A DNA stretch of 64,000 nucleotides from assembly GCA_963668315.1 (NCBI GenBank), contig OY764216.1, forward strand, positions 3,168,001 through 3,232,000. The letters are read 5' to 3'. The notes under the pieces were generated by a model. The model searched no databases and was not told the origin of the DNA. It saw only the letters and a program-made list of their open reading frames with translations. Origin of the DNA: Spirochaetia bacterium. Lineage in GTDB: Bacteria; Spirochaetota; Spirochaetia; DSM-2461. Positions 11,286 to 18,047 of the stretch are shown one piece after another (position 1 is the first letter of the stretch; each line of letters opens with the position of its first letter). The translations under genes and the position numbers were made by a program.

Positions 11286-12068
11286 ATGGACAGTTCTCGC
11301 ATCAAGGAAATACGATTTTCCTTTATAGCTTTTTTCTTTTCCCTTCTCTTCTCTTTTCTCATTCGCTTTCTCTATCTCTGGGGAACCCCCCTCTGGTTTA
11401 ATACGTTCCCCCATGCCTCCGCCCATCGGTTTCTGCTGGCTTTAAGCCTCTATTTTCTCTGCTGCGCGGTTTTCTTTTTTCTTCAGCTGGTCCGGGAAAT
11501 CGGAGAAGAAAAAAAACGCTTCCGGGAAATCTTTTTCCCCTCCTTTCTTCCTGCGGTGCTCTTTGCGGTTCTCGTTCTGTCCGGAATGTCACTTCAGGGT
11601 TTGCAGAGATTTGCGGGGATGGCCGATACGGCCTTCTGGTTTATCGTGGCGGTAACCTTATTCTCCCTGCGAAGAAAAACTCCTTCCCGGCCGATGGGGA
11701 AAATCATGACCCTGTGGCTTGCCTCCGCCGGGATTCACTTCATTCTGGAAATCCTTTCCCTTCTCTTCCTTATACCCGGCCTTCCGGCGATCACCCTGCA
11801 GTTTCTGCTATTTTCTCTCTGCTCCCTCTATTCAGGGTTAAGCTCTCCCTTTCCTCTGGCGGAGAATGCCGATGAAGCGGCGCAACTCTACGGCTTGTCT
11901 CCCCGGGAGAAGGACGTCCTTTCTCTTATCATGGAGGGCAGAACAAACGAGCAGATCGGGGAGGAACTCTATATTTCTCTCTCCACGGTAAAAACCCATG
12001 TGTCGCGAATTTTCGAAAAAACAGGGGCGAGAAACAGGCTTGAGGCCGCGGCTTTATGCCGAAAATGA
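11286..12068 (+). CDS. Membrane-anchored LuxR-family transcriptional regulator
   Basis: Several N-terminal TM helices; C-terminal LSPREKDVL...TNEQIGEELYISLSTVKTHV HTH. Confidence 0.9.
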   Translation: MDSSRIKEIRFSFIAFFFSLLFSFLIRFLYLWGTPLWFNTFPHASAHRFLLALSLYFLCCAVFFFLQLVREIGEEKKRFREIFFPSFLPAVLFAVLVLSGMSLQGLQRFAGMADTAFWFIVAVTLFSLRRKTPSRPMGKIMTLWLASAGIHFILEILSLLFLIPGLPAITLQFLLFSLCSLYSGLSSPFPLAENADEAAQLYGLSPREKDVLSLIMEGRTNEQIGEELYISLSTVKTHVSRIFEKTGARNRLEAAALCRK

Positions 12069-12150
12069 CCGAATCATACTTTCGGCGGATACAGGAAAAT
12101 CAGGAAAAACCGATAGGATACACCGGATGAATGAATCCAAGGAGGTTTAC

Positions 12151-13335
12151 ATGAAAAAAATGCTGTCTGGAGTCCTGCCTTTTCTGGCCATGTTCGTACT
12201 CGTCACAGGGAGCGTTGTCCTATCCTGCGCCACCGGTTCCTTCCGTGATGACAGGCTAGTTTCCCTGAAGGCGGAAGTCACCCCGGAAGGAAAAATCCTT
12301 ACCCTGTGGGTACTGTCGGAAATACAAAGCGTAATTGTCGTGGATGGGAGCAACCGGTCAAGGAAAATCGAGCTGACTCCCGATGAATGGCGCTACGACG
12401 GCGAGGAGGGGGTACTGACACTCCGGAAGGATGTTCCCTTTGAGACGTCTTATGCCGTGGTTCAGGGGTGTCCTTCTGCGCCGCCGACCTTTATCCTGAC
12501 AAACATAGGGAATTATGACGATCTGCTGGTCATACTTGATAACCGGCTAGCCATCGAAGGATATGACTATACCGTTGACCGGGACTCGGATCGCCTGATG
12601 TTCCGCGAGGGGGTGAACCTTAACCGGGAGGAGTGGTTCATCCGTTATCCCGGGGAAGAGGGAACTGTTAGTCTGGGAGAGGGGAAGCCGGAGAACCGCG
12701 ATAAGATCGCCTACCTGGAAGCGGAGCATCAGAAGCGGTTTCTCGATTCATGGTACGACAAACAGGAGGCCTTCTGGTTTTTAGAGGAAGGCGATGGCCG
12801 GGGAAAGCCTCAGCTCGTAAGACGGGCCGCTACGGACGGGGAGCGGCGGGACATGAAATCCTTCCCCCTCTCGGTCTGGAAAGTACGGTCCGATGCGCGG
12901 TTGTCCGAACTGTCCAGGGAGATGGGGTTTTCCCTGTCCCTGCCGGAGGAAATCGCCGTAAAGGAGTCTATTCCCTTTCTGATGACGGGCAAGACCATTG
13001 AGGAAACCTTCAGCGAAGGGAAACTTGTCAGGAAACTCCATATAAGCTATGAAAATGGCGAGAACAGCGTGGACCTTGTTCTCGTCTCCCGGGGAGAGGT
13101 TGAGCCGGAAGCTCCGGAACGGGTGATAGATGATCGGATCATCGATCTGGGCCGGCCCGTTCGCCGTGTCCGTCAATGGGGTCTTGTCTCTCAGGGGATG
13201 GGGGAAAAGCCCGAAGTCGGCAGTTATACCTCCTGGACCTGGAGTCAAGGGGATGTCCGTTATTTTATCGGCTGTGAATCGGACGAGGAAGAGCTGTACC
13301 GGTCGATCATAAGCCGAATCCTGAAAAAGGGGTAG
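12151..13335 (+). CDS. Hypothetical lipoprotein
   Basis: RBS AAGGAGG; signal peptide ending VLS-C. Confidence 0.7.
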   Translation: MKKMLSGVLPFLAMFVLVTGSVVLSCATGSFRDDRLVSLKAEVTPEGKILTLWVLSEIQSVIVVDGSNRSRKIELTPDEWRYDGEEGVLTLRKDVPFETSYAVVQGCPSAPPTFILTNIGNYDDLLVILDNRLAIEGYDYTVDRDSDRLMFREGVNLNREEWFIRYPGEEGTVSLGEGKPENRDKIAYLEAEHQKRFLDSWYDKQEAFWFLEEGDGRGKPQLVRRAATDGERRDMKSFPLSVWKVRSDARLSELSREMGFSLSLPEEIAVKESIPFLMTGKTIEETFSEGKLVRKLHISYENGENSVDLVLVSRGEVEPEAPERVIDDRIIDLGRPVRRVRQWGLVSQGMGEKPEVGSYTSWTWSQGDVRYFIGCESDEEELYRSIISRILKKG

Positions 13336-13363
13336 GGCGGGGAGGTCAACTCCCGGCAGCTTA

Positions 13364-13392
13364 TTGCCAAAAAACGTTTATATCTATACAAT
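13364..13392 (+). promoter_or_regulatory. Sigma70 promoter of the gatCAB-aspS operon
   Basis: TTGCCA (13364-13369) - 17 nt - TACAAT (13387-13392). Confidence 0.65.
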
Positions 13393-13393
13393 A

Positions 13394-13452
13394 GCCGGGT
13401 ATATTATTATTGTTACCCGGCACGTCCGGGCTATTAAGGACGGTATAAAAAC
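13394..13452 (+). promoter_or_regulatory. Structured gatC leader with a 16-nt segment complementary to the gatC Asn-codon tract
   Basis: Inverted repeat GCCGGGTA / TACCCGGC. 13400-13415 is the exact reverse complement of 13653-13668. Alternative pairings CCCGG/CCGGG and CGTCC/GGACG (SD). Confidence 0.6.
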
Positions 13453-13752
13453 ATGAAAAAAGAAGAGCTGCTAACCACAGCCTCTCTGGCCCTTCTGGAG
13501 CTGGAGGACGGCGAAGTGGAACGTCTGGGCGAAGAAGTCGCCCGTATGCTGGATTACTTCGAAATGATGACCAAACTGGACGTGGACGGCCTCGAGCCCA
13601 CCACCCACGCTTTCCAAAAAGAAAATCGCCTTCGCGCGGACAACCTTAATAATAACAATAATAATATAAATAATAATTTCAATAATGATCTGATCATGGA
13701 GAACGGCAACGACGTGGAGGACGATTTCTTCGTCATTCCCAACGTTCTGTAG
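13453..13752 (+). CDS. gatC: Asp-tRNA(Asn)/Glu-tRNA(Gln) amidotransferase subunit C, with a poly-Asn tract
   Basis: 99 aa; LALLEL...LDVDGLEPT...NRLRAD...FFVIPNVL; lies upstream of gatA. Confidence 0.92.
   Translation: MKKEELLTTASLALLELEDGEVERLGEEVARMLDYFEMMTKLDVDGLEPTTHAFQKENRLRADNLNNNNNNINNNFNNDLIMENGNDVEDDFFVIPNVL
13642..13686 (+). repeat. Imperfect (AAT)n tract encoding NLNNNNNNINNNFNN
   Basis: AAC CTT AAT AAT AAC AAT AAT AAT ATA AAT AAT AAT TTC AAT AAT: 12 Asn codons in 15. Confidence 0.95.
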
Positions 13753-13799
13753 AAGGGAAGGGGGGCTCCCAGTCCCGGACGTTCCGTCCGGCCCTGCGA

Positions 13800-13892
13800 C
13801 CGGGTTTTCCGCTCGAACAGCCTTCATGCGTCCGGCCTATCCGGCTCTGTGCCCGCCGCCGGGCCGTACGCGGCTGTAACCGCTCCAACCCC
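13800..13892 (-). ncRNA. Flavo-1-like structured RNA / repeat element in the gatC-gatA spacer
   Basis: The minus strand reads GGGGTTGGAGCGG-TTACAGCC...GGCTGTTC-GAGCGGAAAACCCGG. This resembles my recollection of the Flavo-1 motif of Bacteroidota and Spirochaetota and was not checked with a covariance model. Confidence 0.45.
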
Positions 13893-13929
13893 TGCCCCGT
13901 ACGCTCAAGTTTAAAATCAAGGAAATAGA

Positions 13930-15315
13930 ATGAAAGATTTGCAAGACTGGAAGCGAGTGTTGTCCACTCCCGAATCGGTCAAGAAATACAAAGAATACGT
14001 CAGCACCTGGGAGAAGAAAATCGGCTCTCTCCTGGAGTGGAAGCTTCCCGAGAAGGGCGCCGCCGCCCAAGATTCCCCCCTGGCCGGCATTCCCTTCGCC
14101 GTGAAGGATAATATCGCCGTGGAGGGCTACAAGCTCACCTGCGGCTCCAAAATCCTGGAATTCGTAAAGGCCCCCTATACGGCGACGGGCGTGAAAAGCC
14201 TGCAGGACGCCGGCGGCTATGTCATGGGCAAAACCAATCTGGACGAGTTCGGCATGGGCTCCTCCACGGACAACTCCGCCCTCAAGCAGACGAACAACCC
14301 CTACGACACCTCCCGCGTGGCCGGCGGTTCCTCCGGCGGCTCGGCTGCGGCTGTGGCGGCGGGAATCGTTCCCTTCGCCCTGGGTACCGATACGGGCGGC
14401 TCCGTACGCCAGCCCGCCGGTTTCTGCGGCATCTACGGTCTCAAACCCACCTACGGTGTCGTTTCCCGCTACGGCCTCACCGCCTACGCCTCCTCCCTGG
14501 AAGTGTGCGGCGTCTGCGCCCGTACCGTGGATACGACAAGAGAAGTATTCCATGCCATGAGAGGCAAGGACGAGATGGACCAGACCACCATCGACTACGA
14601 GCCCGTTTCGGCGGAAGCCAAAACCGTGGGCGTCCTGAAAATCGCCGAAGGCAGCCTCTCCGATGATGTGGCCGCCTCCTACGAAACAAGCAAGAAACGG
14701 CTGGAGAAGCTGGGATACATCCTCAAGGAGATCGAAATCCCCGCCATGGAGTACGTGGTTCCCGCCTACTATACCATCGCCACCGCCGAAGCGAGCGCCA
14801 ACCTGGCCCGTTTCAACGGCATGCGCTACGGCCTCTCTCCCATATTCGCCGAATCCCCCGACGACCTGATGCGTTACAGCCGGAACCTGGGATTCGGGGA
14901 AGAAGTAAAGACCCGTATCCTTCTGGGGACCTTTGTCCTCCGTTCCGGCTTCCAGGACCAGTACTACGTGCGGGCCCAGAAAATCCGTACCCTGATCCGC
15001 CAGGAAGTGGATGGGATCTTTGACGAGTGCGACGTGATCATGCTGCCCCTTTTTCCTTCGGCGGCTTTCCATCACGGCCAGTCGGACCTGACCTCCTTCC
15101 AGCAGAAACAGGCCGACCTCTATACCTGTCTGGCCAACCTGACCGGAGCTCCCGGCCTGGCCGTTCCCTCCTCCGTTGAGAAGGGCCTTCCCGTGGGCAT
15201 CCAGCTGATGGCACCTCCCTGCGGAGAGGACCGGCTTTTTAACGTGGCGGAGAACCTGGAAAAGGAGTTCCCCGCACCCAGACCGGCCGGATACAGCGAA
15301 GAGTGGAGGGCGTAA
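13930..15315 (+). CDS. gatA: Amidotransferase subunit A
   Basis: Amidase signature: VKDNI, GKTNLDEFGMGSST, GGSSGGSAAAVA, GTDTGGSVRQPA. Confidence 0.97.
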   Translation: MKDLQDWKRVLSTPESVKKYKEYVSTWEKKIGSLLEWKLPEKGAAAQDSPLAGIPFAVKDNIAVEGYKLTCGSKILEFVKAPYTATGVKSLQDAGGYVMGKTNLDEFGMGSSTDNSALKQTNNPYDTSRVAGGSSGGSAAAVAAGIVPFALGTDTGGSVRQPAGFCGIYGLKPTYGVVSRYGLTAYASSLEVCGVCARTVDTTREVFHAMRGKDEMDQTTIDYEPVSAEAKTVGVLKIAEGSLSDDVAASYETSKKRLEKLGYILKEIEIPAMEYVVPAYYTIATAEASANLARFNGMRYGLSPIFAESPDDLMRYSRNLGFGEEVKTRILLGTFVLRSGFQDQYYVRAQKIRTLIRQEVDGIFDECDVIMLPLFPSAAFHHGQSDLTSFQQKQADLYTCLANLTGAPGLAVPSSVEKGLPVGIQLMAPPCGEDRLFNVAENLEKEFPAPRPAGYSEEWRA

Positions 15316-15318
15316 AAA

Positions 15319-16758
15319 ATGGCTGATACAATGATCAAAGATAAGTATGAAACTTTCGTGGGACTGGAGATCCATATCCACCTGCTCACGGAAACCAAAA
15401 TGTTCTGCGGCTGCAAGGCCAACTACGGTGACGAGCCCAATACCAATGTCTGCCCCGTCTGCCTCGGCTACCCCGGAGTTCTTCCCACGGTGAATGAAAA
15501 AGCCATGGAGATGGGATACGTGGTGGCCCGGGCTCTGAACTGCCGCCTGAGCCGGAAGACCTACTTCGAAAGAAAGAACTACTTCTATCCCGATATGCCC
15601 AAGAACTACCAGATCTCCCAGTTCCAGGAGCCCGTGGGAGTGGACGGCTACATCGAATTCGAGTTCGAAGGGGAAGTCAGGAAAATCCGTATCCACGACG
15701 TCCATCTGGAAGAGGACGCGGGCAAGATGATCCACGCCGGCGATATGTCTCTCCAGGACTTCAACCGCGCCGGTTACCCCCTTCTGGAGATCGTTACCGA
15801 GCCGGATCTGAAGAGCGGCGAGGAGACCGAAGCCTTCCTGCGCGCCTTCCGACGGACCGTCCGCTACCTGGGCGTCTGCGACGGCAATATGGACGAGGGT
15901 TCCATGAAGTGCGACGCCAACATCTCCATCAATCTTCCCGGCGCGGGACTGGGAACCAAGGTGGAGCTCAAGAACATGAATTCCCCCCGTTTCGTCCGCC
16001 GGGGACTCCAGTACGAGGCCCAGAGACAGGCGGAAGTCCTGGACAACGGGGGCACCCTGATTCAGGAAACCCGCCTCTGGAACGAAAACCACGACATTAC
16101 CGAGACCATGAGAACCAAGGAAATGGCCAACGACTACCGCTATTTTCCCGAGCCCGATATGCCTCCCTTCTGTCCGGACGATGCTTTTATCGCCCGGGTG
16201 GAAAAATCCCAGGTGGAACTGCCCCTGGCCCGTAAGCACGACCTGATGCGCAAGTACGCCATCAGTTCAGATCAGGCCGAGTTCATCCACGACGAGAAGG
16301 TCAATGCCGACTATTTCGAGAAGACCGTGGCCCTGGGGGCCGATCCCCAGGCTATCTACACCTGGCTCTCTTCGGATGTGCAGAAGGAGCTGAACCTTCT
16401 GAATATGACCCTGACCGAATCGCCCCTGACTCCGGAGAGATTCGCCGCCCTTCTCAAGCTCCTCGATGAGGAGACCATCAGCGGAAAGATCGCCAAGCAG
16501 GTGCTTATCGATATCTTCGAAGAGGATGAAGATCCCGCCGCCATCGTAGAGAAGAAGGGGCTGAGCCAGATCAGTGATCCCGCTGTTATTTCAGCGGCCG
16601 TGGATAAGGTCATCGGCAGTAATCCCGAGGTGGTGGCCGCCATCGGGGAAGGCGATCAGAGACAGAAAGGTTTTCTGGTCGGACAGATCATGAAGGAGAC
16701 CGGAGGACGGGCCGCTCCCGCTCTGGTCCAGAAAATTCTTGCCGAGAAACTGGGCTGA
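15319..16758 (+). CDS. gatB: Amidotransferase subunit B
   Basis: GLEIH, RKNYFYPDMPKNYQISQ, HLEEDAGK, YRYFPEPD, C-terminal YqeY-like domain. Confidence 0.97.
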   Translation: MADTMIKDKYETFVGLEIHIHLLTETKMFCGCKANYGDEPNTNVCPVCLGYPGVLPTVNEKAMEMGYVVARALNCRLSRKTYFERKNYFYPDMPKNYQISQFQEPVGVDGYIEFEFEGEVRKIRIHDVHLEEDAGKMIHAGDMSLQDFNRAGYPLLEIVTEPDLKSGEETEAFLRAFRRTVRYLGVCDGNMDEGSMKCDANISINLPGAGLGTKVELKNMNSPRFVRRGLQYEAQRQAEVLDNGGTLIQETRLWNENHDITETMRTKEMANDYRYFPEPDMPPFCPDDAFIARVEKSQVELPLARKHDLMRKYAISSDQAEFIHDEKVNADYFEKTVALGADPQAIYTWLSSDVQKELNLLNMTLTESPLTPERFAALLKLLDEETISGKIAKQVLIDIFEEDEDPAAIVEKKGLSQISDPAVISAAVDKVIGSNPEVVAAIGEGDQRQKGFLVGQIMKETGGRAAPALVQKILAEKLG

Positions 16759-16772
16759 CCTAGGAGAGAAGA

Positions 16773-18047
16773 ATGGAAAGAACACTAATTAAAGAGATAA
16801 AAGATTCCGTGGGAAAGGATGTTATGCTTTCCGGTTGGATTCACCGTATTCGCGACCTCGGCGGCGTCACCTTCGTCATTTTGCGTGACCGGTCCGGAAA
16901 ATGCCAGGTCGTGACCAATGATCCGGTGGAACTGAACCAGGAAACCGTCGTACAGGCCTATGGAAAAATCGCCGCCAACGACAAGGCGCCCGGCGGTTAT
17001 GAATTGATACTGGACCATTTCGACGTTCTCGGTGCCGCCGCTCCGGAGCTTCCCTTTCCTGTTAACGGGGACCCCTCCAAGGTGGGGATCGAGCTCACCC
17101 TGGATCAGAGAATGATCTCCCTCAGAAATCCCCAGATCCTCTCCATCTTCCGTCTGCAGGCGGCTCTGGTAAAATATTTCGGAGAGTATCTCCGCAGCAA
17201 GGATTTTACGGAGATCAAGTCCAGCAAGATGATCGGAACCGGGACCGAGGGGGGAACCAGCGTCTTTACGGTGGAGTATTTCGACCGCAAGGTTTTCCTG
17301 GCCCAGTCGCCCCAGTTCTACAAGCAGGCCATGGTCTCTTCCGGCCTGGAAAGGGTTTTCGAGATCGGCCATGCCTACCGGGCGGAGAAGCACGAGACCT
17401 CCCGGCACATAAACGAATATGTCTCCATGGATGTGGAGATGGGCTTCATTCAGTCCGAACTGGATATCATTGAGCTGGAAAGAGGCTTGCTGGCCTACAT
17501 TTTCGATCAGGTCAATGGGAACAACAAGGATGATATGGATGCCTGGGGCGCCACCTGCCCCACCGGAGAGCAGATGAGGAAAGCTCCGATTATCTCCCAT
17601 GACGAGGCCAAGCAGATCATCCGGGACAAGCTGGAAAGACGTGTCTTTGAGATCAGCCCGGAAGGGGAGAGAGTCCTCTGTGCCTGGGCCGAGGAGGAAC
17701 ACGGTACACCTCTTGTCTTCGTCAACGAATTTCCCCGCCGCAAGCGTCCTTTCTACACCTATCCCAAGGGAACCAAGACCATGAGTTTCGACTTGCTCTT
17801 CCGCGGTCTGGAAATTACCACCGGCGGCCGCCGTATCAACGAGTACGAAATGCTCCGTGAGACCCTTCCCCGTTTCGGCATGACCGAAGAGGAGCTGGGC
17901 GGTTATGCCGATATTTTCAAGTACGGCTGCCCCCCCCACGGAGGCTTCGCCATCGGCCTTGAGAGACTGACCCAGAAGATCATGGGGCTGAGCAACATCA
18001 AGGAGTGCTCCCTCTTTCCCCGTGACAGAAGACGGGTCACTCCCTGA
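16773..18047 (+). CDS. aspS: Non-discriminating (archaeal-type) aspartyl-tRNA synthetase
   Basis: 424 aa with no GAD insert; LAQSPQFYKQ, YRAEK, PPHGGFAIGLER, FPRD; co-operonic with gatCAB. Confidence 0.92.
   Translation: MERTLIKEIKDSVGKDVMLSGWIHRIRDLGGVTFVILRDRSGKCQVVTNDPVELNQETVVQAYGKIAANDKAPGGYELILDHFDVLGAAAPELPFPVNGDPSKVGIELTLDQRMISLRNPQILSIFRLQAALVKYFGEYLRSKDFTEIKSSKMIGTGTEGGTSVFTVEYFDRKVFLAQSPQFYKQAMVSSGLERVFEIGHAYRAEKHETSRHINEYVSMDVEMGFIQSELDIIELERGLLAYIFDQVNGNNKDDMDAWGATCPTGEQMRKAPIISHDEAKQIIRDKLERRVFEISPEGERVLCAWAEEEHGTPLVFVNEFPRRKRPFYTYPKGTKTMSFDLLFRGLEITTGGRRINEYEMLRETLPRFGMTEEELGGYADIFKYGCPPHGGFAIGLERLTQKIMGLSNIKECSLFPRDRRRVTP

What the first reader, a model, noticed from the sequence alone, without database searches (positions are those of the whole stretch)
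13394..13686. Candidate Asn-tRNA-sensing RNA switch: the gatC leader is perfectly complementary to a poly-Asn codon tract inside gatC
Seen in sequence: leader 13400-13415 (TATATTATTATTGTTA) is the exact 16-nt reverse complement of 13653-13668 (TAACAATAATAATATA) in the gatC Asn tract. The match includes the AAC and ATA interruptions, which argues against a simple low-complexity coincidence in a GC-rich region. The leader segment fills the loop of the inverted repeat GCCGGGTA/TACCCGGC. Next to it are two mutually exclusive pairings: CCCGG (13416-20) with CCGGG (13426-30), or CGTCC (13423-27) with the SD region GGACG (13438-42). Established: ND-AspRS plus GatCAB synthesise Asn-tRNA(Asn), and codon-run attenuators sense aminoacyl-tRNA supply. 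Inference: ribosomes slowed on the Asn codons would mask the tract and change the leader's structure or stability. GatC would then act as its own leader peptide in feedback control of the pathway. The direction of regulation cannot be read from sequence. It depends on whether transcription starts near 13399, which would exclude the 5' arm of the hairpin.
Basis: partly seen in the sequence, partly recalled or inferred. Interest (0 to 1): 0.92.

Follow-up and report, generated by a model that had tools for sequence, protein, structure and literature searches.

The report
gatC mRNA senses its own asparagines
In one spirochaete genus, the gene for a subunit of the enzyme that makes asparagine-charged tRNA has gained a run of asparagine codons and a matching 5' leader. 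The two are predicted to fold together over the gene's own ribosome-binding site, so ribosomes slowed by asparagine shortage would probably switch the gene on; this is conserved but not yet tested.

Summary
Observation confirmed and extended. The 16-nt leader/tract complement is exact, ranks 1 of 4,188 called genes, and is not an assembly error. All 4 species of the genus have a 52-54-nt leader, an Asn-codon insertion in gatC and a 12-16-nt perfect match. None of 27 other family loci has them, and 21 look leaderless. This gives a direction. Pairing hides gatC's own RBS; a ribosome on codons 62-72 lowers the cost of opening it by 1.6-6 kcal/mol, so slow Asn decoding should raise initiation. The genome has AsnRS plus ND-AspRS/GatCAB and no AsnA, so such feedback makes sense. 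Against: the helix core is invariant rather than covarying; 4 species are one origin; the SD helix alone is no stronger than chance; GlnRS is missing, so GatCAB is needed regardless; another genus has short Asn clusters without a leader. No RNA data. It works like mycobacterial poly-Cys attenuators crossed with the E. coli gnd internal complementary sequence. Not found in print. Pairing functional about 0.85; Asn sensing about 0.6.

The parts
13364..13392 (+). sigma70-type promoter (-35 at 13364-13369, 17-nt spacer, -10 at 13387-13392); predicted start about 13399
   Evidence: 10 of 12 consensus matches; same spacing in 4 of 4 congeners. The start is not mapped.
13400..13415 (+). leader segment 1, 5' strand of long-range helix 1
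   Evidence: mean pair probability 0.89-0.98 in 4 species; 11-bp core invariant in 4 of 4
13416..13430 (+). small leader hairpin between the two long-range helices (junction arm)
   Evidence: folds and consensus; loop varies (X5 change at 13422)
13432..13443 (+). leader segment 2 with the Shine-Dalgarno; 13432-13439 is the 5' strand of helix 2 (extends further into the SD in G002 and G003)
13453..13752 (+). gatC, 99 aa, 16 Asn
   Evidence: TIGR00135 above its cut-off; Asn count
13644..13651 (+). anti-SD in codons 64-67, 3' strand of helix 2
13653..13668 (+). 3' strand of helix 1 (codons 67-72)
13642..13686 (+). Asn-codon tract, codons 64-78 (12 Asn), including about 7 residues inserted relative to solved GatCs; proposed sensor
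   Evidence: 7-residue gap against 3h0l_C and 2df4_C
13753..13929 (.). gatC-gatA spacer holding a dispersed repeat; not part of the device
   Evidence: 5 other hits at 74-88% in G000; 59-177 nt in congeners; replaced in X5
13930..18047 (+). gatA, gatB and non-discriminating aspS: the rest of the Asn-tRNA pathway, probably co-transcribed
   Evidence: gatA and TIGR00458 just under their cut-offs; gatB and NF003483 over; no + strand terminator in 13200-14000

Best explanation
gatC is its own attenuator. Shown in sequence and by prediction: the 54-nt leader (segment 1, hairpin, SD segment) pairs with a nearly continuous 25-nt stretch of codons 64-72, and this closes the gatC RBS. Inferred: the first ribosomes load before that stretch is transcribed. 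After that, the RBS reopens only while a ribosome is melting or sitting on the tract. With plenty of Asn-tRNA (free Asn plus AsnRS) the ribosome passes quickly, the helices re-form and translation dies out. With little Asn-tRNA it dwells on the Asn codons, the SD stays free and more ribosomes load. The result is more GatC and, by polarity or mRNA protection (not tested), probably more gatA-gatB-aspS: negative feedback on tRNA-dependent Asn synthesis.
For: The match ranks 1 of 4,188 genes and the Asn window ranks 1, in the gene that makes Asn-tRNA. Leader and tract are present together in 4 of 4 congeners (12-16 nt perfect) and in 0 of 27 other family loci (5-10 nt; at most 4 Asn in residues 57-80 against 12-13). 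In 21 of those 27 a -35-like hexamer sits 34-39 nt before the ATG, against 87-89 nt here. The 11-bp core is unchanged although gatA four-fold sites differ by 35-49% between these species. Both helices appear in single folds, cofolds and the consensus fold. Leader binding beats dinucleotide shuffles of the leader: 0, 2, 1 and 25 of 400 shuffles reach it. A modelled ribosome at codons 62-71 lowers the SD opening cost from 5.0/7.0/8.5/7.5 to 2.2-4.0 kcal/mol; at codons 80-90 it changes nothing. All 10 full-length protein relatives keep 7-11 Asn in 14 residues while the tract sequence varies. AsnRS is present and AsnA was not found. The AsnB-like genes sit among glycosyltransferase, NRPS and PKS genes. 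A toy kinetic model with assumed rates gives up to about 5-fold induction with pairing and only loss without it.
Against: The four species are one evolutionary origin. The helix cores are invariant: one search shows no two-sided change in either long-range helix, and one search shows one variable position. The SD segment alone binds the coding region no better than synonymous resamples (194-728 of 1000 as good). Whole-leader binding beats synonymous resamples in G000 and G001 (3 and 1 of 400), weakly in G002 (36) and not in G003 (158). Merely having 24 or more upstream bases paired at long range is common: 201 of 1,630 genes folded. In G000 the SD gain is only 1.6-2.7 kcal/mol, and masking a paired strand frees its partner by construction. 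GlnRS was found in 0 of 4 congeners against 30 of 34 other family genomes, so GatCAB is needed for Gln-tRNA whatever the Asn level. Genus g7 (5 genomes) and three single genomes have short Asn clusters at this site with no leader match. Two other G000 genes have 9-10-Asn runs. No consistent effect on the gatA RBS. In the toy model output falls again when slowing is strong.
Confidence: 0.6

Rival explanations
1. The pairing is functional but blind to amino acid. It is a gnd-type internal complementary sequence that caps GatC output or ties it to general ribosome traffic. Asn is a by-product: an AAU repeat matching a U-rich leader can only read as Asn, Ile or stop.
For: Explains all conservation data. 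A sister genus without a tract (g3) also shows predicted SD/start pairing with codons 69-78 in 3 of 4 loci (18, 0 and 25 of 500 resamples as good, the fourth locus 388).
Against: Asn codons continue past the paired strand (codons 73-78), and deeper relatives stay Asn-rich with different sequences. The top Asn run in the genome lies in the Asn-tRNA gene. Any leader sequence could have served for a blind helix.
Confidence: 0.2
2. The duplex acts on mRNA lifetime or transcription (a double-strand RNase site, 5'-end protection, or Rho access) rather than on initiation; ribosomes on the Asn codons still control it.
For: Helix 1, the strongest and best conserved part, lies at the very 5' end and does not itself cover the SD. 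This route would explain control of the downstream genes, which one search does not.
Against: Helix 2 over the SD is kept in register in 4 of 4. No terminator on the + strand. No RNA data.
Confidence: 0.1
3. No functional pairing. The tract is a tolerated low-complexity linker; the leader motif is kept as a promoter-proximal or ribosome-loading element; the match is a relic of an inverted copy or of AT-rich chance.
For: Short Asn clusters without leaders in other spirochaete GatCs. Two unrelated Asn runs in G000. gatC is low in synonymous change throughout (38 of 81 conserved-residue columns vary against 217 of 333 in gatA), so invariance in the tract is less special.
Against: Rank 1 of 4,188. 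Match kept across 35-49% four-fold divergence while flanks turn over. The single AAC sits opposite the leader G in 4 of 4. The other two Asn runs have no long upstream match (nothing else above 13 nt).
Confidence: 0.1

Closest known systems
Mycobacterial polycysteine leaderless sORF attenuators (bioRxiv 10.1101/834739; abstract and Discussion read)
   Same: Ribosomes pausing on a run of one amino acid's codons block an mRNA pairing that hides a ribosome-binding site; translational, with no terminator; controls that amino acid's pathway.
   Different: There the sensor is a separate short ORF upstream and the freed RBS belongs to the next gene. Here the run is inserted in the structural gene, about 200 nt downstream of the RBS it frees, which is the gene's own.
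E. coli gnd internal complementary sequence (bioRxiv 10.64898/2026.10.22.760973; passages read)
   Same: A stretch near codons 67-78 of a gene pairs with that gene's own 5' UTR and RBS and was proposed to inhibit initiation; both strands conserved. The geometry is nearly the same (codons 64-72 here).
   Different: gnd control is tied to growth rate and, in that preprint, to heat and an alternative ORF. No amino-acid codon run is described in the passages read. Here the internal strand is a run of the codons whose tRNA the operon charges.
[quoted passage not shown]
   Same: Same physiological problem: GatCAB and ND-AspRS kept beside AsnRS and regulated by tRNA-Asn status.
   Different: A T-box binds uncharged tRNA directly in a long leader (recalled). 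This leader is 54 nt and has no Rfam match of note; the ribosome would be the sensor.
Classical amino-acid transcription attenuators (trpL, hisL, pheM; recalled)
   Same: A run of cognate codons as sensor of charged tRNA.
   Different: No separate leader peptide and no terminator/antiterminator.

Membership tests
Ribosome-mediated translational attenuator (poly-Cys type) | Run of codons for the pathway's amino acid | tested here: met
   12 Asn in codons 64-78; top Asn window of 4,188 genes; operon makes Asn-tRNA
Ribosome-mediated translational attenuator (poly-Cys type) | Paused ribosome covers a strand that otherwise hides an SD | tested here: inconclusive
   Predicted in 4 of 4, but the SD helix alone is not above the null and there is no probing
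Ribosome-mediated translational attenuator (poly-Cys type) | Sensor is a dedicated short ORF upstream of the regulated gene | tested here: not met
   The run lies inside gatC, downstream of the SD it pairs with; no consistent effect on the gatA RBS
Ribosome-mediated translational attenuator (poly-Cys type) | Expression responds to the amino acid | not testable with these tools
   No RNA holder listed; needs reporters
gnd-type internal complementary sequence | Coding stretch complementary to the gene's own leader and RBS, both strands conserved | tested here: met
gnd-type internal complementary sequence | Pairing lowers translation in vivo | not testable with these tools
   Needs break-and-restore mutants
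T-box riboswitch | Stem I, specifier and T-box antiterminator recognised by Rfam | tested here: not met
   cmscan of 13200-14000 at E up to 5 gave only one weak miRNA hit in the spacer
Transcription attenuator | Intrinsic terminator after the sensor | tested here: not met
   No + strand terminator-like site in 13200-14000; Rho-dependent termination not testable

The most novel reading that the evidence does not exclude
A self-attenuating structural gene. An essential enzyme subunit gained, in one lineage, both a 5' leader and an internal codon run, so that ribosomes waiting for the enzyme's own product (Asn-tRNA) unlock their own mRNA's start site from 200 nt downstream. No leader peptide, riboswitch or protein regulator is needed. 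Such switches would be missed by searches for upstream ORFs and could be found by pairing codon runs with their own UTRs.
Probability: 0.55. Interest if true: 0.88.

Novelty: new variant of a known kind. Interest (0 to 1): 0.77.

Why it matters
If true, it puts an amino-acid sensor inside the regulated protein's own coding sequence, acting backwards on its own initiation; I found no such case in the searches run. It shows a way to regulate tRNA-dependent Asn synthesis without a T-box. It catches a regulator arising from a gene that is mostly leaderless in the rest of the family. It gives a functional reading to a low-complexity Asn run that would normally be dismissed. The whole device is about 350 nt, so it can be tested with a reporter in a laboratory strain.

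Tried and rejected
More leader-plus-tract sequences: a metagenome protein scan confirmed none of 588 candidates. The genome-contig scan gave 3 real loci, apparently the same congeners, and one unrelated hit. The deeper relatives P0008-P0010 have no retrievable DNA, so covariation could not be extended. The 'order' search repeated the family set. No RNA holder listed. Count of long-range paired UTR bases: not discriminating (1,630 of 4,097 genes folded). SD segment alone: not above the null. Control of the gatA RBS by tract ribosomes: no consistent effect in g1 or g7. Pairing of g7 Asn clusters with the gatC 5' end: no common helix. ND-AspRS as the partner gained with the device: rejected, as it is found in 28 of 38 family genomes. 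The alignment had one row on the wrong strand and was redone. Literature searches listed no paper describing this element (listings only; subscription journals are mostly absent; no supplements were read). The scan's earlier findings returned nothing.

Full report
Observation. Window 13400-13415 is the exact reverse complement of 13653-13668. The second stretch lies in gatC (13453-13752), the first gene of gatC-gatA-gatB-aspS, where aspS is of the non-discriminating type. Close relatives are titled Spirochaetales or Spirochaetaceae MAGs. For each of 4,188 script-called genes I took the longest perfect match between the 60 nt upstream and the first 400 nt of the gene. gatC scores 16, the next two 13, and most 6-8. 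GatC also has the most Asn-rich window in that set. A contig at depth 189, possibly this DNA's source, shows no difference over 13300-14100. Run X5, from another study, has 15 differences over 13300-13757; the nine that were listed all fall outside the paired segments, and six were not placed.

Anatomy. A sigma70-type promoter ends at 13392, which puts the start near 13399 and gives a 54-nt leader. Folded from there, all four species of the genus give the same architecture (consensus fold). Segment 1 pairs with codons 67-73. A small hairpin follows. Then the segment carrying the Shine-Dalgarno (13432-13439) pairs with 13644-13651, directly 5' of the first target. The leader thus covers a nearly continuous 25-nt stretch of the tract and closes its own RBS. 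Its outer hairpin needs bases upstream of the predicted start, and that hairpin and the CGTCC/GGACG alternative are not conserved (read by eye). Relative to solved GatCs the tract adds about 7 residues after the conserved R-x-D motif.

Distribution. The genus has four genomes; all have the tract, the leader and a 12-16-nt perfect match. A gatC match was found in 28 of 34 other family genomes, and I examined 27 of those loci. They have at most 4 Asn in residues 57-80 and matches of 5-10 nt. In 21 of them a -35-like hexamer lies 34-39 nt before the ATG, i.e. little or no leader, against 87-89 nt here. So leader and tract were gained on the same branch, which counts as one event. The 11-bp core of helix 1 is invariant while gatA four-fold sites differ by 35-49%. 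One flanking position is A-U, G-U, G-C and G-U in the four species. In helix 2, two species have an A-C mismatch but a three-pair extension into the SD. Ten full-length protein relatives, down to 78% identity, keep 7-11 Asn in 14 residues. Among 149 more distant representatives, one reaches 7 and three reach 5.

Controls, including those against. Leader-tract binding is -20.8, -14.3, -15.5 and -11.0 kcal/mol. Leader shuffles reach it 0, 2, 1 and 25 times in 400; synonymous resamples of the tract reach it 3, 1, 36 and 158 times in 400. The SD segment alone is no better than resamples. A plain count of long-range paired bases does not single out gatC: 201 of 1,630 folded genes equal it. The consensus fold shows no two-sided change in the long-range helices. 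gatC has fewer synonymous changes than gatA overall. A pattern search of 401 class genomes matched 19. By translation, eight outside the genus are gatC with three tandem Asn codons: five of genus g7 and three single genomes. None has a leader match above 7 nt, and most look leaderless. These clusters are unexplained.

Mechanism. Masking a ribosome footprint at codons 62-71 lowers the cost of opening the SD from 5.0, 7.0, 8.5 and 7.5 to 2.2-4.0 kcal/mol; footprints at codons 80-90 do nothing, and those at codons 20-58 shift it less and in both directions. This is partly built in, but it shows that the first Asn run sits where a paused ribosome covers both helices. The inferred cycle: early ribosomes load before the tract is made; each one that crosses the tract opens a window for the next; short windows let the chain die, long windows sustain it. 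A toy simulation with assumed rates (60 runs a point with pairing, 30 without) gave 4 to 20 proteins per mRNA at 4-fold slower Asn decoding in one setting and 2.7- to 4.3-fold gains in the other three. Output fell at stronger slowing in the fast-initiation settings, and without pairing it only fell. It shows feasibility and direction, nothing more. How the signal reaches gatA, gatB and aspS is open: the gatA RBS is not consistently affected.

Physiology. G000 has AsnRS. AsnA was not found in it or in three congeners. Its AsnB-like genes lie among glycosyltransferase, NRPS and PKS genes, and only one of three congeners has a full AsnB hit. ND-AspRS plus GatCAB is therefore probably the main Asn route, needed most when free Asn is lacking; PMC4206432 describes this arrangement for other bacteria (passages). 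GlnRS was not found in any of the four congeners but was in 30 of 34 other family genomes. GatCAB must therefore always supply Gln-tRNA, so the switch can only modulate. Why it would count Asn and not Gln is not explained.

Comparison. It works like the mycobacterial poly-Cys attenuators (10.1101/834739; abstract and Discussion read), but it fails their defining layout: there is no separate upstream ORF. Its geometry is that of the E. coli gnd internal complementary sequence (10.64898/2026.10.22.760973; passages), for which no codon sensor is described in the passages read. It is not a T-box and has no terminator. Searches listed no description of this element; the library lacks most subscription papers and I read no supplements.

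Verdict. The feature is real and conserved; the pairing is probably functional (about 0.85). Asn-tRNA-controlled release of gatC's own RBS is the best explanation (0.6), with amino-acid-blind fold-back control as the main rival (0.2). New variant of a known kind; interest 0.77.

Noticed in passing
L015, L016, L018 (genus g3, same family): gatC has no Asn tract, yet its SD and start codon are predicted to pair with codons 69-78 in 3 of 4 loci; L017 does not. Possibly a second internal-complement control of gatC.
   Followed up: partly
L193-L197 (genus g7), L185-L187: gatC with a short Asn cluster at the same site, mostly AAT codons. The g7 genes look leaderless, have GlnRS, and this ND-AspRS was not found in them. 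No pairing partner found.
   Followed up: partly
P0067: Another spirochaete-like GatC with a longer insertion holding 7 Asn in 14 residues; no DNA available.
   Followed up: no
G000-G003: GlnRS not found in 0 of 4 genomes of this genus, while 30 of 34 other family genomes have it.
   Followed up: partly
window 13800-13893: Dispersed palindrome-rich repeat in the gatC-gatA spacer, with 5 other hits in the genome.
   Followed up: partly
window about 13510-13560: A long hairpin inside gatC is kept in all four species with several tolerated changes; it may bring leader and tract together.
   Followed up: no
G000:C1:4249001-4334000 (L208-L211): Cluster with several AsnB-like amidotransferases, NRPS/PKS modules, glycosyltransferases and an integrase.
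   Followed up: partly
G000:C1:2955658 and 4763392: asnS and the second aspS have promoter-like boxes right before their start codons; a 7-nt pyrimidine-rich unit is repeated about 7 times upstream of that aspS (by eye).
   Followed up: no
G000:C1:2290103-2291827 and 2704094-2706346: Two other genes with 9-10 Asn runs in mixed AAC/AAT codons and no long upstream match.
   Followed up: partly
window 11998-13335: Upstream 445-aa ORF with no NCBIfam match.
   Followed up: no
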